Shown here piece after piece: positions 226 to 3,759 of a stretch of 3,759 nt of DNA. How positions within the stretch are numbered: position 1 is the first letter of the stretch; the number at the start of each line of letters is the position of its first letter. This DNA comes from Dictyostelium discoideum (lineage: Eukaryota): positions 1 through 3,759 of the forward strand of contig CH709159.1 in the NCBI GenBank assembly GCA_000004695.1, read 5' to 3'. Both the position numbers and the translations under genes were made by a program. A model generated the notes under the pieces. That model worked only from the letters and a program-made list of their open reading frames with translations. It was not told where the DNA came from and did not search any database.

Positions 226-388
226 ATCATTCTTTTTTTTTTGAAATTTTTTTTTTTATTTTGTTTTTTCAATTTTTTTTTTTATTTTTTTTTGTTTTTT
301 TTTTAACAAATGTAATTTTTTTTTATTTTTTTCAATTTTTTTTTTTTTTAATTTTTATTTAATTTTTTTTGTTTTTTTTTAATTTTTT
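226..388. repeat. Oligo(dT)/oligo(dA) low-complexity block (runs of 9-14 T separated by 1-4 nt)
   Basis: Directly visible homopolymer T runs. Typical AT-rich intergenic or 3'-flank DNA. The six-frame 'ORF' 112..306 is just a poly-Phe translation of this block. Confidence 0.85.
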
Positions 389-414
389 GTGTTGATTTGT
401 GTTGATTTGTGCTT
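389..414. repeat. 10-bp tandem repeat (GTGTTGATTT) x about 2.5
   Basis: gtgttgatttgtgttgatttgtgc seen directly. Confidence 0.8.
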
Positions 415-444
415 TTTTTGTGTTTTTTGATTTCGCCACTTGTT

Positions 445-450
445 TTTATT
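445..450 (-). terminator. AATAAA polyadenylation signal for the minus-strand gene ending at 499
   Basis: Minus-strand AATAAA (plus-strand tttatt) lies about 50 nt downstream of the TAG stop at 499-501. The A-rich tract follows on the minus strand. Confidence 0.4.
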
Positions 451-498
451 TTCTAATTTCCCCATAACCCCTTCTATTAATTGCAACCAAATCAAGTT

Positions 499-1023
499 CT
501 AATTTTTTGTGTCCTTGTTAACTTTGTTTTTGCAACTTTTTTTTGAAGGTATCACATTAACGATTGTTCCTATTGATGGTGATTTGGAAGGTGATTTGGA
601 AGGTGATTTGGATGGTGATTTGAGAGGTGATTTGGATTGTGATTTGAGAGGTGATTTGGATGGTTTGGAATGTGATTTTAAAGGAGGTTTATTAACAATT
701 GGTATCTTATGATGACGGCCTCTGAGACGTTTTACAGTTTTTAAAAATGGGAGTATTTCTTCTTGTTCCATTTCATTATTGAGTTTGTGTTGAAATTGAT
801 TATCGTTAATGATAGGTGGAATATTTGATGGATTGTTAAGGGCATCTTCCAATACCCTAAATGGATCATTTTGTGTTACCAATTGATGCAAGTTGAAATT
901 GGATAAATCCTTACCAAGATTTTTAATAAATTGAACCAGAAATTCAATAACTTTCCCATCATTATTTAAATAAAGGCCAGAAGTAAAAGAATCAATATCT
1001 TTTGGTATGTTTGGCCAAAAATA
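499..1023 (-). CDS. Hypothetical low-complexity protein, C-terminal part, with a KSPSKSP/SPLK tandem-repeat tail. Open frame of 174 codons plus a TAG stop at 499-501. The 5' limit is set by an in-frame TGA, not a start codon.
   Basis: The six-frame track gives 499..891; its first codon is TTG, so this is not a real start. The same frame stays open upstream to 1023 with strongly A/T-ending codon usage (cca, gat, tct, tta, gtt, caa). It translates as ...FWPNIPKDIDSFTSGLYLNNDGKVIEFLVQFIKNLGKDLSNFNLHQLVTQNDPFRVLEDALNN...KSPSKSPSKSPS...KDTKN*. No ATG lies in frame before residue 'NNEMEQEE', so the true start must be upstream via a frame change (see next feature). Confidence 0.55.
   Translation of the reverse strand, partial: YFWPNIPKDIDSFTSGLYLNNDGKVIEFLVQFIKNLGKDLSNFNLHQLVTQNDPFRVLEDALNNPSNIPPIINDNQFQHKLNNEMEQEEILPFLKTVKRLRGRHHKIPIVNKPPLKSHSKPSKSPLKSQSKSPLKSPSKSPSKSPSKSPSIGTIVNVIPSKKSCKNKVNKDTKN
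578..682 (-). repeat. 12-bp coding tandem repeat (GGTGATTTGGAA-like, about 8.5 units) encoding (K-S-P-S/L)n on the minus strand
   Basis: Units seen directly: ggtgatttggaa x2, ggtgatttggat, ggtgatttgaga, ggtgatttggat, tgtgatttgaga, ggtgatttggat, plus degenerate units. The plus-strand 'ORF' 509..712 (GDLEGDLEG...) is the antisense artefact of this repeat. Confidence 0.9.
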
Positions 1024-1185
1024 TCAACTGTTGATTGTTTATAAAGAACCAACTTACCTCCTACAACCAGAGTATAAACCTTTTTTTTGAAGGCTATTGA
1101 TTCCATCTTCCAAAAATTCAAGTTTATAAAGTTGTTTAGTGTCTTCCTGTATTACCTTATGAATTTTACACAAAATAAATATTTT
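1024..1185 (-). CDS. Probable upstream coding continuation of the same gene. The well-coded frame switches at homopolymer runs. Frame a reads ...QEDTKQLYKLEFLEDGINSLQKK. After the T8 run at 1081-1088, frame b reads (MESIAFKKK)VYTLVVGGKLVLYKQSTVDIFGQTYQK. After the T4 run at 1000-1003, it joins the 499..1023 frame.
   Basis: Codon-usage quality moves from frame a to frame b to the downstream frame exactly at A-runs on the minus strand. Frame b has an ATG at 1106..1104 (MESIAFKKKVYTLVVGG...) and is open to a TAA at 966-968. A GTAAGT donor-like hexamer (minus strand, 1057..1052) sits where frame a hits its stop. The only downstream AG gives a 30-nt intron that enters the 3' frame at a TGA, so splicing does not explain the switch. 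The gene structure is unresolved. Confidence 0.3.
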
Positions 1186-1260
1186 CTATTAGAATTAAAT
1201 ATAAAATTTGTTAATTATTACTGTTTCTTATATTATTATTAATCTTTATGTTTTAATTAC
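1186..1260 (-). other. Candidate intron or inter-ORF spacer (about 90% A+T). On the minus strand it begins GTAATT just after a TAA and ends AATAG.
   Basis: Composition and GT...AG ends are seen directly. However, all three frames of the upstream ORF hit stops before the GTAATT, so its use as an intron is unproven. Confidence 0.2.
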
Positions 1261-1478
1261 TTATATTATTTTTTTAATTTCTAGAAAAAGTACAGTATCA
1301 CCAACTTTAAATCCCTTTGGTGGTTTTGAATTCCATTGATTTTGGTAACTTGTGAGATTTTCAAGAATAGCTGTTCTTTCTTTTTTGAAACATCTGAAAC
1401 ACCAATTGATTGAGAGTTTTGTTCTGATTGAACATTAATAAACAAAGGTACAATACCAACAGCTTGAGATGATGCCAT
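1261..1478 (-). CDS. Small ORF or first exon. It reads MASSQAVGIVPLFINVQSEQNSQSIGVSDVSKK. After the T6 run at 1381-1386 the better-coded frame shifts to ERTAILENLTSYQNQWNSKPPKGFKVGDTVLFLEIKKII*. Alternative start ATG at 1517. The track frame ends at 1281.
   Basis: Track ORF 1281..1517 (-). The AAAATGG context at 1478 is better than that at 1517. Codon usage (ggt, gtt, tca, gat) is excellent up to the A6 run, then better in the -1 frame, which ends at TAA 1261-1263. It lies about 60-100 bp downstream of the outward-facing TATAAATA of the left repeat arm. Confidence 0.4.
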
Positions 1479-1567
1479 TTTAATTGTTCTTGTTTTCGTA
1501 TTATTGTAATCATACAAAGCTTGTTTTAATCCCAGTGAGACAATCCGGCCATATTAGTCACATTCAC

Positions 1568-1575
1568 TATTTATA
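1568..1575 (-). promoter_or_regulatory. TATAAATA box at the outer end of the left arm, facing outward on the minus strand toward the ATGs at 1517 and 1478
   Basis: Plus-strand tatttata is TATAAATA on the minus strand. It lies 175 bp from the HSE. Its partner is at 3048-3055. Confidence 0.35.
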
Positions 1576-1620
1576 CATTTTTATTTTCTTAAAAATTTCC
1601 CAAAACTAAAAAAATAAGTG

Positions 1621-1746
1621 TTTTCGACCCTTCACAATTTTCGTGCATTGTGTGGGTTCGGAATTTTTATGTTTTTTGACCTTGCGCATTTATCGCGTCA
1701 TTGTGCCGGTTCGAAATTTTTACTTTTCTTTCGAAAATTTTTTATT
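1621..1746. repeat. Degenerate tandem sub-repeats of about 52 bp inside the left arm (two units plus a partial third), each ending in GGTTCG(A/G)AATTTTTA or TTCGAAAATTTTTTA
   Basis: Unit 1 (1621-1669) and unit 2 (1672-1723) align: ttttYgaccYtt...cattgtgNNggttcgRaattttta. A third copy of the 3' half is at 1731-1745. Mirrored in the right arm at about 2877-3000. Confidence 0.7.
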
Positions 1747-1747
1747 C

Positions 1748-1768
1748 TTCGAATGTTCTAGAACATTC
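1748..1768. promoter_or_regulatory. Heat-shock element in the left arm: TTCGAAtgTTCtaGAAcaTTC
   Basis: Four contiguous perfect nGAAn/nTTCn pentamers with 2-nt spacers, plus an abutting TTC. CTAGAACATTCTAA matches the Pelham consensus CTnGAAnnTTCnAG at 13 of 14 positions. Confidence 0.65.
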
Positions 1769-1823
1769 TAAAAAAAATTATCTTAGATATTTGGGAAATT
1801 CAAATAAATAAATGTTATTAATA

Positions 1824-1843
1824 ATATATATATATATATATAT
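1824..1843. repeat. (AT)10 microsatellite, with a further (AT)5 at 1853-1862
   Basis: Seen directly. It could act as a TATA-like element for inward transcription from the HSE. Confidence 0.9.
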
Positions 1844-2624
1844 GATAATATTATATATATATGATAATATAAATTGCCCCGTTTCAATCGTCCAATGCAA
1901 AAATGTATGTACACCATAACTCACTTCCATCTCACCGTTTACATCACAATTTTCGCCCTGGAAATAGTTTGTAAGACAGAAGAAGGCTCAACATTTCTGG
2001 ATGTCTATCGCGTTGACTAATAACCAGCTCCCAACCACTATTTCCTTTAGCACCTTTCATATCTACATCAACATTATACTTAATCAATAACTTTACTAGG
2101 CCTGTGTTATGATTCTCAATAGCCCAGCACTTCGGTTTAAATGGGAAGTAAGTATAGGTATGACAAATGAAAAAAATACGTGCTCATGCGAATATATAGG
2201 ATGGGTAGGTCGGCATCTATGACTCGATAGAATTTTTACATTACATGATAATAAGGCATCAATAATGACTGGTTGAGTTGTATATTTGGAAATAGATACG
2301 TTCTAATATAACATTAAACGATTCATTTATTTCATTTATTTCGGTCGTTTTTAAATTATATAAATTACAATAGCACAAAATACATCTCCAAAAAGAGTGT
2401 ACACCGAAAACTTCACACATTCCAGTTAAAACTATATTGTATGCGTAATCATTCACCATAAATTGTTTAGAAGGTATTTATTCACCATCTACATCTAAAA
2501 ATCCACATTTTATACCAATCATTTAATTTATCAAAAATTGACTTTCATCTTTTCCTAAAATTCTTGATAAGTTTCCTTCCCGTGTAATACAAAAATTGGT
2601 TTGTTCACAGCAAAGAAAAATGCA

Positions 2625-2768
2625 CCTTTAAAGCAAATTTAAAGCAAAGTTGATTTAAATTGGATTTAAATTGAATTTAAAGCCGCGTTTAAAAAATTCA
2701 TTTTTAAGGTAATTTTTAAGGTAATTTTTAAGATATTTAAAAATGCCTTTAAAATTTGCTTTAAAATA
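2625..2768. repeat. Cluster of short TTTAAA-cored micro-tandem repeats: (TTTAAAGCAAA)x2, (GATTTAAATTG)x2-3, (TTTTTAAGGTAA)x2.5, (CTTTAAAAT)x2
   Basis: Seen directly, immediately inside the right arm. Confidence 0.75.
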
Positions 2769-2781
2769 AATTTATATTATC

Positions 2782-2800
2782 ATATATATATATATATATA
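2782..2800. repeat. (AT)9.5 microsatellite
   Basis: Seen directly. Confidence 0.9.
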
Positions 2801-2854
2801 TTATGAATAACATTTATTTATTTGAATTTCCCAAATATTTAAGATAATTTTTTA

Positions 2855-2875
2855 GAATGTTCTAGAATATTCGAA
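2855..2875. promoter_or_regulatory. Heat-shock element in the right arm: GAAtgTTCtaGAAtaTTCGAA
   Basis: Mirror image of the left-arm HSE. Four perfect alternating pentamers. Confidence 0.65.
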
Positions 2876-3047
2876 GAATAAAAAATTTTCGAAAGAAAAG
2901 TAAAAATTTCGAACCGGCACAATGACGCGATCATTGCGCAAGGTCGAAAAACTGAAAAATTCCGAACCGACACTATGCACAAAGTTGTGAAGGGTCGAAA
3001 ACTCTTATTTTTTTGAGTTTTGCGAAATTTTTAAGAAAATAAAAACG

Positions 3048-3055
3048 TATAAATA
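3048..3055 (+). promoter_or_regulatory. TATAAATA box at the outer end of the right arm, facing outward toward the ATG at 3223
   Basis: Seen directly. It lies 175 bp downstream of the HSE and about 170 bp upstream of the ATG. A second TATA-like run (TATATATAT, 3107-3115) and an oligo-dT-rich stretch lie closer to the gene. Confidence 0.35.
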
Positions 3056-3122
3056 GTGGCACTAAAAACTAAAACAATTTGATTTATTTTATTTGGGAAT
3101 TCCTCCTATATATATTTAAGAT

Positions 3123-3134
3123 ACACACACACAC
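3123..3134. repeat. (AC)6 microsatellite in the 5' flank of the right gene
   Basis: Seen directly. Confidence 0.9.
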
Positions 3135-3222
3135 AAATTTTATACAAATAATTATTTCTCTTTATTAATTTTTAATATTATTATTTTTCTCATATTATAA
3201 TTTTAGATATCAACAATAAAAT

Positions 3223-3759
3223 ATGTCTACCACTGTTAATAATAATGATGCCTCTAGTAGTAGTACCTCTGCCTCTAATAGCGCTGAATCCTTTGATTTA
3301 AGAATGAAATCAATGGAGGATCAAATCAACAACCTTTCCTTAGCCTTTACAAGATTCATGAAAGAACCTATGTTCTCATCTAATACCAATTCACGTAGCC
3401 AACCTTCTCATGATAACTCTGACACCGAGAATGAACAAAGTGAAGATGAATCAAGTAACAATGTCGATGTTCCAACCGATTATCAATTATCCGATACTTT
3501 ACTTGGTCAGTACAAACATATGGTAAACAATCAAGGTTTACTCGTCGAAGAAGAATGTATCCTCAAGAAAGATGAGATATCCGAATTGAATAAAGTATTC
3601 AACTTTCCATCTAACTTCCAAGTGAACGTCGCTCCATTCGGTACACCTGAAGGTATTACTGTATCATCCAACGTCAAGAACAATGATACTGACTTGTTGA
3701 TTGTCGAAAAGCGAATCAATGATAGCTTAAAACCTTTGCTTCTCATGTCAAGTATGTTA
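3223..3759 (+). CDS. Hypothetical protein, 5' portion. 179 codons open to the window edge with no stop. N-terminus is MSTTVNNNDASSSSTSASNSAESFDLRMKSMEDQINNLSLAFTRFMKEPMF.... It has a Ser/Thr/Asn-rich N-terminus and an acidic stretch, then ...LLGQYKHMVNNQGLLVEEECILKKDEISELNKVFNFPSNFQVNVAPFGTPEGITVSSNVKNNDTDLLIVEKRINDSLKPLLLMSSML...
   Basis: ATG lies in an AATAAAATATG context. I re-translated every codon from 3223 to 3759 with no stop. It is absent from the ORF track only because it has no stop inside the window. There is frequent use of C-ending codons (acc, tcc, aac, atc, ttc, gtc, gac). I could not assign a family. Confidence 0.7.
   Translation, partial: MSTTVNNNDASSSSTSASNSAESFDLRMKSMEDQINNLSLAFTRFMKEPMFSSNTNSRSQPSHDNSDTENEQSEDESSNNVDVPTDYQLSDTLLGQYKHMVNNQGLLVEEECILKKDEISELNKVFNFPSNFQVNVAPFGTPEGITVSSNVKNNDTDLLIVEKRINDSLKPLLLMSSML

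What the first reader, a model, noticed from the sequence alone, without database searches (positions are those of the whole stretch)
1568..3055. Mirror-image HSE + TATAAATA modules facing outward toward two divergent genes: a candidate bidirectional heat-shock promoter
Each arm has a perfect four-unit HSE (1748-1768; 2855-2875) exactly 175 bp from a TATAAATA at the arm's outer edge (1568-1575 on minus; 3048-3055 on plus). The two flanking genes point away from the element. The minus-strand ORF ATGs are at 1517 and 1478, about 60-100 bp beyond the left TATA. The plus-strand ATG is at 3223, about 170 bp beyond the right TATA. Heat-shock transcripts could therefore read out of the element into both neighbours. 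Inward transcription from the same HSEs, using the (TA)n tracts as TATA, is also possible.
Basis: partly seen in the sequence, partly recalled or inferred. Interest (0 to 1): 0.75.

Follow-up and report, generated by a model that had tools for sequence, protein, structure and literature searches.

The report
Two DIRS-1 retrotransposon LTR heat-shock promoters
The two mirror-image heat-shock modules are two copies of the terminal repeat of the Dictyostelium retrotransposon DIRS-1, whose heat-shock promoter was described in 1984, and the "genes" they face are transposon reading frames, so the finding is real but already explained.

Summary
There are two about 300-bp inverted arms, 93% identical. 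Each has a perfect four-unit HSE (1751-1768; 2855-2872) about 173 bp from a TATAAATA. No shuffle of the window produced such an HSE.

The window is Dictyostelium discoideum transposon-cluster DNA.

- **Right arm (2770-3087):** this is the complete left LTR of a full-length DIRS-1 retrotransposon. The ORF at 3223 is DIRS-1 ORF1 (GAG). In another assembly of the same locus the element continues through RT/RNase H/tyrosine recombinase, an internal complementary region and a right LTR.
- **Left arm (1565-1874):** this is a second, dead DIRS-1 LTR of the left type. It is cut 3 nt after its TATA box and fused to the frameshifted 3' half of a Tdd-4 DNA-transposon transposase. The "ATG 1478" is an internal Met of that protein.

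The HSE and TATA are invariant in all D. discoideum LTR copies aligned. This is the published DIRS-1 terminal-repeat heat-shock promoter. It is not a shared bidirectional host promoter. Reporter data in the literature show the LTR fires in one direction only.

One small extra: LTRs sampled from three sister species lack the perfect HSE.

The parts
2770..3087 (+). Complete left LTR (inverted terminal repeat) of a full-length DIRS-1 retrotransposon, 318 bp. The outer terminus is ATTTATATTATC... and the inner edge is ...GATTTAT.
   Evidence: Ten LTR copies were aligned. The outer end is defined by left-LTR copies with unrelated flanks. The inner end is the point where left- and right-LTR copies diverge. 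In L003 (the same locus; identical to the window except a 22-bp and a 4-bp indel) the element continues to a right LTR. Its ICR is complementary to this terminus. [quoted passage not shown]
2855..2872 (.). Four-unit heat-shock element GAAtgTTCtaGAAtaTTC in the right arm.
   Evidence: Its GAA/TTC units are unchanged in all 10 aligned D. discoideum LTR copies. All 13 perfect four-unit HSEs in 52.7 kb of D. discoideum loci lie in this same LTR context.
3048..3055 (+). TATA box (GTATAAATAGTGGCAC) of the LTR promoter, about 32 bp before the inner LTR edge.
   Evidence: Present in all D. discoideum copies aligned (one copy has a single substitution 3' of the TATA box). Conserved in sampled D. firmibasis and D. 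citrinum LTR copies, and as TATAAAAGG in D. dimigraforme. [quoted passage not shown]
3088..3222 (+). DIRS-1 5' leader between the LTR and ORF1. Its first ~55 nt (about 3088-3140) are nearly identical across three species.
   Evidence: Alignment A2. This block is nearly identical in D. discoideum, D. firmibasis and D. dimigraforme, while the LTR body is about 70% identical.
3223..3759 (+). DIRS-1 ORF1 (GAG), first 179 codons. It runs off the window.
   Evidence: 163 hits, nearly all from Dictyostelium, with many copies per contig. Some gene models are fused to RVT_1 or Phage_integrase. It is followed by an RT/RNase H/tyrosine recombinase gene in L003 and L002. No Pfam family matches it.
1565..1874 (-). 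Second DIRS-1 LTR, left-LTR type, in inverted orientation. The outer terminus is intact at 1874. The inner 29 nt are missing: it is cut 3 nt after TATAAATAGTG. It carries a 19-bp TA-rich duplication at 1828-1871.
   Evidence: It lacks the extension found on right LTRs. It diverges from all other copies right after TATAAATAGTG.
1751..1768 (.). Four-unit heat-shock element GAAtgTTCtaGAAcaTTC in the left arm.
1568..1575 (-). TATA box of the truncated LTR. It reads TATAAATA on the minus strand.
1537..1564 (.). 28-bp junction filler of unknown origin between the truncated LTR and the Tdd-4 fragment. Any transcript from the left TATA would start about here.
   Evidence: DNA homology to the L004 Tdd-4 copy ends at 1536. 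LTR homology ends at 1565.
449..1547 (-). 3' half of a Tdd-4-type (Ginger2/Tdd) DNA-transposon transposase gene. It is a pseudogene, and it includes the (SPxK)n repeat encoded by the 12-bp array at 578-664.
   Evidence: tblastn of the 693-aa protein P0123: aa 242-693 align to 1547..449 across frames -2/-1/-2/-1/-2/-3, with stop codons and a 45-aa gap. Residues 1-241, which hold Integrase_H2C2 and most of the rve match, are absent. The paralogue DDB_G0282919 is listed as 'DDB_G0282919_TE, Tdd-4' (PMC12405889).
1875..2605 (-). Low-copy spacer between the two LTR outer ends. It contains a frameshifted ankyrin-repeat-like pseudo-ORF (about 2147-1880, minus strand) that stops at the LTR terminus.
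   Evidence: Pfam Ank_2 scores 30.2 bits against a cutoff of 27.3. The frames are shown. No homologue was found by word search. Segment 2354-2605 recurs inverted next to another DIRS-1 in L004.
2606..2769 (.). A/T-rich repeat with 11-12-bp periodicity, abutting the outer end of the right-arm LTR.
   Evidence: Tandem repeats at 2652-2681 and 2700-2732. Related copies lie beside DIRS-1 and Tdd-4 pieces in L001, L003 and L004. L003 has a 22-bp deletion at 2749-2770.

Best explanation
The window comes from a transposon cluster of Dictyostelium discoideum. In another assembly of this locus it lies at the end of a 4.9-Mb contig. The two 'arms' are two copies of the roughly 320-bp terminal repeat (LTR/ITR) of the tyrosine-recombinase retrotransposon DIRS-1, and their outer ends face each other.

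Each LTR is a one-directional RNA polymerase II promoter. An array of four alternating GAA/TTC units, a binding site for heat-shock factor trimers, sits about 173 bp upstream of a TATA box. Transcription starts about 30 bp further on, near the inner edge of the LTR.

The right arm (2770-3087) is the functional left LTR of a full-length DIRS-1. It drives the element's own 4.5-kb GAG-RT-recombinase mRNA.

The left arm (1565-1874) is the left LTR of a destroyed DIRS-1 copy. Everything beyond 3 nt past its TATA box has been lost. It is joined through 28 nt of filler to the frameshifted 3' half of a Tdd-4 DNA-transposon transposase. This arm keeps its HSE and TATA, so it could still fire a stress-inducible read-out transcript into that dead fragment, but no intact protein would result.

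Shown here: the identity of every part, the boundaries, the conservation of HSE and TATA in D. discoideum copies, and the DIRS-1 architecture. Taken from the literature: promoter activity, its direction and heat inducibility. Inferred: activity of these two particular copies.
For: **Arms and motifs.** The arms are 93% identical. The HSE occurs twice against 0 in 200 shuffles.

**Right-hand ORF.** It has 163 hits, almost all from Dictyostelium, with many copies per contig. Some gene models are fused to RVT_1 or Phage_integrase.

**Same locus in another assembly.**
- L003 243-3975 matches the whole window and is identical apart from two indels.
- There the right arm is followed by a 1229-aa RT/RNase H/Phage_integrase gene.
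- An LTR in the opposite orientation lies at L003 7401-7793.
- A sequence at L003 7283-7366 is complementary to the left terminus and to the right terminus. This is the DIRS-1 internal complementary region, as described.
- The element is about 4.75 kb, against the canonical 4814 bp.

**LTR alignment.** Ten LTR copies fix the boundaries at 2770 and 3087. The HSE units are unchanged and the TATA box is present in all ten. The left arm is a left-type LTR cut after TATAAATAGTG. All 13 perfect HSEs in four D. discoideum loci lie in LTR context.

**Left-hand ORF.**
- tblastn aligns a 693-aa integrase-like transposase to the minus strand at 449-1547, with frameshifts.
- Its paralogue DDB_G0282919 is annotated as Tdd-4.
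- The same LTR-Tdd-4 fusion occurs on another chromosome end (L004), further damaged by a 121-bp deletion and a newer DIRS-1 insertion.

**Literature.**
- The right LTR drives GFP only in the forward orientation.
- Heat shock triggers the 900-nt antisense E1 transcript.
- The titles of the 1983-84 papers state that the family is heat-induced and that the terminal repeats contain a heat-shock promoter that works in yeast.
Against: - No expression data for this locus were available, so activity of either copy is inferred.
- DIRS-1 clusters are reported as heterochromatic and RNAi-silenced, so both promoters may be largely silent in wild-type cells.
- The left arm has lost the native start-site region (29 nt), which could weaken or abolish initiation.
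- The original 1984 papers could not be read here. That the published heat-shock element is this exact GAA/TTC array therefore rests on titles, secondary citations and my recollection.
- The accessible literature ties heat induction explicitly to the right-LTR antisense transcript, and less explicitly to the left-LTR sense mRNA.
Confidence: 0.92

Rival explanations
1. One palindromic host regulatory element acts as a shared bidirectional heat-shock promoter for two divergent cellular genes.
For: Both modules point outward. ORFs begin 60-170 bp beyond each TATA.
Against: - Both ORFs are transposon-derived: DIRS-1 GAG and a truncated Tdd-4 transposase.
- The arms belong to a repeat family with many copies. 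At least 13 HSE-bearing LTRs occur in 52.7 kb of other loci.
- The right arm is demonstrably one end of a 4.75-kb element with its own partner LTR.
- The two HSEs are 1.1 kb apart, and each has its own TATA.
Confidence: 0.02
2. Positions 1565-3058 form one mobile or foldback element: a non-autonomous transposon with about 300-bp terminal inverted repeats and a 0.9-kb core.
For: The arms are long inverted repeats flanking a non-coding core. [quoted passage not shown]
Against: - The LTR outer termini, which are the true integration ends complementary to the ICR, face inward at 1874 and 2770, not outward.
- Homology of the right arm continues past 3058 into the leader and GAG of the same element.
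- In L004 the pieces occur separately and rearranged.
- No other copy of the 1565-3058 unit was found, apart from the same locus in L003.
Confidence: 0.02
3. The facing LTR pair matters as a hairpin. A read-through transcript spanning both arms would fold into a roughly 300-bp dsRNA stem and feed Dicer, giving LTR-specific small RNAs that help silence DIRS-1.
For: - RNA from 1565-3058 folds into one long stem, with a minimum free energy of -541 kcal/mol.
- LTR small RNAs are reported to be symmetric, independent of RrpC, and possibly Dicer products.
- Convergent DIRS-1 repeats are used as a knock-down vector.
Against: - No promoter is known that would transcribe across both arms.
- Both LTR promoters point away from the spacer, and reverse-orientation activity was not seen.
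- Inverted LTR pairs are common in DIRS-1 clusters, so nothing singles out this pair.
Confidence: 0.05

Closest known systems
DIRS-1 (Tdd-1) inverted terminal repeat heat-shock promoter of Dictyostelium discoideum. References: Zuker et al. 1984 PNAS; Cappello et al. 1984 MCB; Cohen et al. 1984 MCB. Titles are cited; the reference sequence is GenBank M11339.
   Same: The repeat length, inverted arrangement, ICR complementary to the termini, GAG/RT/recombinase content, HSE plus TATA module and transcript start near the inner LTR edge all match. The right arm is simply a member.
   Different: Nothing differs for the right arm. The left arm is a truncated copy, lacking the last 29 nt and the whole element body, fused to foreign DNA.
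E1, the 900-nt heat-shock-induced antisense transcript from the DIRS-1 right terminal repeat (PMC3950715).
   Same: In both cases an LTR copy fires a stress-inducible transcript into whatever lies on its inner side. The left arm would do the same.
   Different: E1 runs antisense into DIRS-1 itself. Here the downstream sequence is a dead Tdd-4 transposase fragment, and the native start region is missing.
Tdd-4 / Ginger2 DNA transposons with integrase-like transposase (PMC2836005).
   Same: Window 449-1547 is homologous to the C-terminal half of a 693-aa Integrase_H2C2 + rve protein and carries its SPxx repeat tail. The paralogue is annotated as Tdd-4.
   Different: The catalytic half is absent, the frame is broken at least three times, and no terminal inverted repeat or 5-bp target duplication could be identified in the window.
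Heat-activated LTR retrotransposons elsewhere, for example Arabidopsis ONSEN/ATCOPIA78 with HSEs in its LTR (from my own knowledge, not checked here).
   Same: A heat-shock factor binding array is embedded in a retrotransposon LTR, so stress activates the element and can activate neighbouring sequence.
   Different: It is an unrelated element class (Copia, direct LTRs, DDE integrase) and was acquired independently.
Canonical eukaryotic heat-shock element (alternating nGAAn units; Pelham box CTnGAAnnTTCnAG) (established knowledge).
   Same: There are four contiguous perfect alternating units, and two overlapping near-matches to the Pelham consensus.
   Different: It sits about 173 bp from the TATA box. 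From recollection, not checked here, this is farther than in classic hsp70 promoters. A TTCGAA junction adds an out-of-register fifth triplet.

Membership tests
DIRS-1 retrotransposon (DIRS order) | Inverted terminal repeats of about 320-350 bp at both ends of a roughly 4.8-kb element | tested here: met
   In L003 (the same locus) the left LTR equals window 2770-3087, and an inverted copy lies at L003 7401-7793. The element is about 4.75 kb. The canonical length is 4814 bp. Only the left LTR and the start of GAG lie inside the window.
DIRS-1 retrotransposon (DIRS order) | Internal complementary region (ICR) just inside the right repeat, complementary to the outer tips of both repeats (the circle junction) | tested here: met
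   L003 7283-7366 reads rc(left terminus ATTTATATTATCATATATA...) directly followed by rc(right terminus ...AAATTAAATTTTTA). This matches the description.
DIRS-1 retrotransposon (DIRS order) | GAG ORF followed by RT/RNase H and a tyrosine recombinase, with no DDE integrase | tested here: met
   GAG family. Downstream gene models in L003, L002 and L004 carry RVT_1, RT_RNaseH and Phage_integrase.
DIRS-1 retrotransposon (DIRS order) | The terminal repeat carries a heat-shock promoter (HSE upstream of a TATA) that is heat-inducible | tested here: inconclusive
   The sequence part is met: the HSE units are unchanged and the TATA box is present in 10/10 aligned copies, and 13/13 HSEs lie in LTR context. 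Inducibility itself cannot be tested with these tools and rests on the literature.
DIRS-1 LTR: the left arm (1565-1874) as a complete LTR | Full repeat from the outer terminus to the inner edge (...GATTTAT), attached to the element body | tested here: not met
   The outer terminus is present, but the arm ends 29 nt short of the inner edge and is joined to non-DIRS sequence. It is an LTR fragment, not an element.
Tdd-4 / Ginger2 DNA transposon | Integrase-like transposase with an HHCC zinc finger and DDE core | tested here: not met
   The homologous full-length protein P0123 has Integrase_H2C2 and rve in aa 28-258. The window holds only aa 242-693 equivalents, with frameshifts. It is a fragment derived from the family, not a functional member.
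Tdd-4 / Ginger2 DNA transposon | Terminal inverted repeats (145-260 bp) and a 5-bp target duplication | tested here: inconclusive
   No TIR pair for the fragment lies inside the window. In L004 an 81%-identical inverted pair (300-510 and 7742-7957) brackets the Tdd-4 piece, but similar A/T-rich repeats occur elsewhere too.
Eukaryotic heat-shock element | At least three contiguous alternating nGAAn/nTTCn units | tested here: met
   Four perfect units in each arm.
Eukaryotic heat-shock element | Bound by heat-shock factor and needed for heat induction | not testable with these tools
   This needs ChIP, EMSA or a reporter mutation.
Bidirectional promoter | One shared regulatory region driving two divergent genes | tested here: not met
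   There are two independent modules 1.1 kb apart, each a separate transposon LTR with its own HSE and TATA. The LTR promoter is reported to be active in one orientation only.

The most novel reading that the evidence does not exclude
The perfect four-unit HSE may be a lineage-specific acquisition of the D. discoideum DIRS-1 LTR. In this sample, LTRs from D. citrinum (4 copies), D. firmibasis (4) and D. dimigraforme (2) keep the termini, and the full-length copies aligned from each species also keep the TATA box and 5' leader. At the HSE site, however, they have only a degenerate or imperfect motif, or a deletion. If so, gain of strong stress-inducible transcription could have contributed to the DIRS-1 expansion that is reported as unique to D. 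discoideum among dictyostelids (PMC5633606).
Probability: 0.15. Interest if true: 0.45.

Novelty: already known. Interest (0 to 1): 0.12.

Why it matters
It matters little beyond correct annotation.

Practical value:
- The two "genes" should not be treated as heat-shock-regulated host genes.
- The truncated LTR fused to a Tdd-4 fragment has a unique junction (1537-1564). That junction would let read-out transcription from a single LTR copy be measured unambiguously in RNA-seq, which is otherwise hard for a repeat family with many copies.
- The apparent absence of the perfect HSE from sister-species LTRs is a cheap lead on how stress-responsiveness of a centromeric retrotransposon evolved.

Tried and rejected
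- **Original papers.** I tried to read the 1984 DIRS-1 papers and the 2001 repeat catalogue (PMC369062, PMC345129, PMC368762, PMC311061, and the PNAS DOI). None is held. I relied on their titles in reference lists and on later open-access papers.
- **AX4 gene models.** Looking up the contigs for P0074 and P0122 returned nothing on record.
- **Left ORFs as a host gene.** This was rejected after the paralogue turned out to be annotated as Tdd-4 and a representative search gave a 693-aa integrase-like protein. Pfam on the window's composite protein alone had found nothing.
- **Arms as TIRs of a DNA transposon (Tdd-4, Tdd-5 or thug).** This was rejected because the arms carry the DIRS-1 termini complementary to the ICR, and these termini face inward.
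- **Left arm as a right LTR.** This would put a + strand DIRS-1 to its left. It was rejected because the arm lacks the right-LTR extension and the left flank has no DIRS-1 homology.
- **Ankyrin-like ORF between the arms.** A word-index homology search found nothing, so its origin stays unknown.
- **Other scans.**
  - The bacterial promoter/terminator scan was at chance level and does not apply to a eukaryote.
  - Rfam and tRNA scans of the window found nothing.
  - The phage, plasmid and E. coli collections, and the viral, metagenome and prokaryote genome scans, were not used because the source is an amoeba.
Full report
**Observation.** The window is 28% G+C, with long T runs and (TA)n tracts. 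A local alignment of the two regions gives arms 1565-1860 and 2766-3058, with 276 of 297 columns identical and 5 gap columns. The repeat finder extends the pairing to 1875. The pattern GAANNTTCNNGAANNTTC is found exactly twice, at 1751-1768 and 2855-2872, and never in 200 dinucleotide-preserving shuffles. TATAAATA occurs once on each strand, at 3048 (+) and 1568 (-).

The description is therefore correct. Small corrections:
- The in-register four-unit arrays are 3 nt shorter than stated.
- The spacing to the TATA box is 172-173 bp.
- Position 1517 is a TTG, not an ATG.

**Right arm.** The ORF starting at 3223 has 163 significant relatives. Almost all are from D. discoideum and close relatives, with many on single contigs. 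Some gene models are fused to reverse transcriptase or tyrosine recombinase domains. This is the behaviour of a high-copy retrotransposon gag.

One fetched locus, L003, lies at the end of a 4.9-Mb contig of another D. discoideum assembly. It matches the whole window and differs only by a 22-bp and a 4-bp indel. There the right arm is followed by a 1229-residue gene model with RVT_1, RNase H and Phage_integrase domains. After that comes a second copy of the arm in the opposite orientation, at L003 7401-7793.

Just inside that second copy, L003 7283-7366 reads as the reverse complement of the left terminus, directly followed by the reverse complement of the right terminus. This is the internal complementary region, or circle junction, that defines DIRS-1. 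The element is about 4.75 kb, against the canonical 4814 bp.

An alignment of ten LTR copies fixes the left LTR in the window at 2770-3087, which is 318 bp. [quoted passage not shown]

**Left arm.** In the same alignment the left arm has the left-LTR type of outer terminus (ATTTATATTATC..., ending at window 1874). It lacks the extension seen on right LTRs. It diverges from every other copy 3 nt after TATAAATAGTG, so the innermost 29 nt and the whole element body are missing.

Beyond a 28-nt filler (1537-1564) lies sequence that I first took for a small host gene family. The AX4 paralogue DDB_G0282919 is listed as 'DDB_G0282919_TE, Tdd-4' (PMC12405889). An exhaustive representative search returned a 693-residue protein with Integrase_H2C2 and rve domains. 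tblastn places its residues 242-693 on window 1547-449, minus strand, spread over changing frames with stop codons and a 45-residue gap. Residues 1-241, the zinc finger and most of the catalytic core, are absent.

The left 'gene' is therefore the dead 3' half of a Tdd-4-type transposase, and the ATG at 1478 is an internal methionine. The 12-bp array at 578-664 encodes its SPxx repeat tail.

The same LTR-Tdd-4 fusion occurs near another chromosome end (L004). There it has lost a further 121 bp across the junction, and a newer DIRS-1 is inserted immediately beside the old HSE position. The fusion therefore predates that duplication.

**Between the arms.** The two LTR outer termini face each other across positions 1875-2769. 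This spacer has no DIRS-1 homology. It holds two features:
- A frameshifted ankyrin-like pseudo-ORF that ends at the LTR terminus. Ank_2 scores 30.2 bits against a cutoff of 27.3, and no homologue was found by word search.
- An A/T-rich repeat with 11-12-bp periodicity at 2606-2769, which recurs beside DIRS-1 and Tdd-4 pieces elsewhere.

**How it works.** The HSE core and the TATA box are unchanged in all ten D. discoideum LTR copies aligned. All 13 perfect four-unit HSEs in 52.7 kb of other D. discoideum loci lie in this LTR context.

The literature adds the following:
[quoted passage not shown] This fits a start about 30 bp past the TATA box, near the inner LTR edge.
- The right LTR drives antisense RNA and a GFP reporter only in the forward orientation.
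- Heat shock induces a 900-nt antisense transcript (PMC3950715; PMC7192593).
- The 1983-84 papers, whose titles are cited, report that the family is induced by heat shock, that the terminal repeats contain a heat-shock promoter, and that this promoter works in yeast.

I could not read those papers. The identification of the published element with this exact GAA/TTC array is therefore an inference, helped by recollection.

My reading is that each arm is an independent, one-directional, HSF-responsive Pol II promoter. The right arm serves DIRS-1 itself. The left arm can at most produce a non-coding read-out transcript into the Tdd-4 remnant, because the reading frame from ATG 1478 stops after 65 codons. 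Whether either copy fires in this heterochromatic, RNAi-controlled setting is untested.

**Rivals.**
- *Shared bidirectional host promoter.* This is excluded by the transposon identity of both ORFs and by the multi-copy nature of the arms.
- *Single foldback or TIR element spanning 1565-3058.* This is excluded because the true integration termini face inward, and because the right arm continues into its own element.
- *Hairpin as a source of small RNAs.* RNA from 1565-3058 would fold into one long stem, and LTR small RNAs independent of RrpC have been reported. However, no promoter is known to read across the spacer, so I give this about 5%.

**Comparison across species.** LTRs recovered next to GAG homologues in D. 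firmibasis (4 copies), D. citrinum (4) and D. dimigraforme (2) keep the outer terminus. The full-length copies aligned from each species also keep a TATA box and a nearly identical 5' leader. None of the ten copies has a perfect three- or four-unit HSE. D. firmibasis has GAAttTTCtgGAG nearby, D. citrinum has a degenerate version, and D. dimigraforme has a deletion. The sample is small, but the perfect array may be specific to D. discoideum.

**Verdict.** The feature is already known, so interest is low.

Noticed in passing
window 449-1547 (minus strand): The left 'gene' is the 3' half of a Tdd-4-type integrase-like transposase. It has at least three frameshifts, a 45-residue deletion and an SPxx repeat tail. 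The catalytic N-terminal half is missing.
   Followed up: yes
L004 5820-6040, compared with window 1440-1780: The same truncated-LTR/Tdd-4 fusion is present near another chromosome end. That copy has a 121-bp deletion across the junction that removes the TATA box. A newer full-length DIRS-1 is inserted immediately next to the old HSE position. This fits the reported habit of DIRS-1 of inserting into DIRS-1.
   Followed up: yes
L005, L006, L007, L008 (LTR copies); window 2855-2872: DIRS-1-like LTRs sampled from D. firmibasis, D. dimigraforme and D. citrinum lack the perfect HSE, although the termini, and in the full-length copies aligned the TATA box and leader, are conserved. The four-unit HSE may be specific to D. 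discoideum.
   Followed up: partly
window about 3088-3140 (alignment A2, columns about 335-390): The first ~55 nt of the DIRS-1 5' leader just inside the LTR (...TTTATTTGGGAATTCCTCCTATATATATTTAAGATACACACACA...) are almost identical in three species. The LTR body is only about 70% identical. This suggests a constrained function, such as priming, packaging or translation.
   Followed up: no
window 2749-2770 and 2782-2785, compared with L003: The only differences between the window and a second assembly of the same locus are a 22-bp indel exactly at the outer boundary of the LTR and a (TA)2 length change inside it.
   Followed up: partly
window 2606-2769; L001 183-351; L003 7776-7853, 12826-13424; L004 112-629, 7734-8238: An A/T-rich repeat with 11-12-bp periodicity (ATTTTTAAGGTA, GATTTAAATTG) recurs next to DIRS-1 and Tdd-4 pieces. 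In L003 similar copies flank both ends of the full DIRS-1. In L004 an inverted pair (300-510 and 7742-7957, 81% identical) brackets the Tdd-4 piece. It could be a transposon terminal repeat or a preferred target.
   Followed up: partly
window 1880-2147 (minus strand): An ankyrin-repeat-like pseudo-ORF (Pfam Ank_2, 30 bits) carries a frameshift and ends at the outer terminus of the left-arm LTR. The word-index search found no homologue.
   Followed up: partly
window 1828-1871: The left arm carries a 19-bp duplication (ATATATATATATATATGATA, 2.2 copies) in the TA-rich outer part of the LTR. The right arm does not have it.
   Followed up: no
window 230-430: About 200 bp are almost pure T, with occasional A, G or C. 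This lies downstream of the Tdd-4 stop codon on the minus strand and reads there as an A-rich 3' region.
   Followed up: no
L004 7914-7985: ARAGORN calls a tRNA-Ile (GAT)-like sequence just beyond the Tdd-4 piece in the paralogous locus.
   Followed up: no
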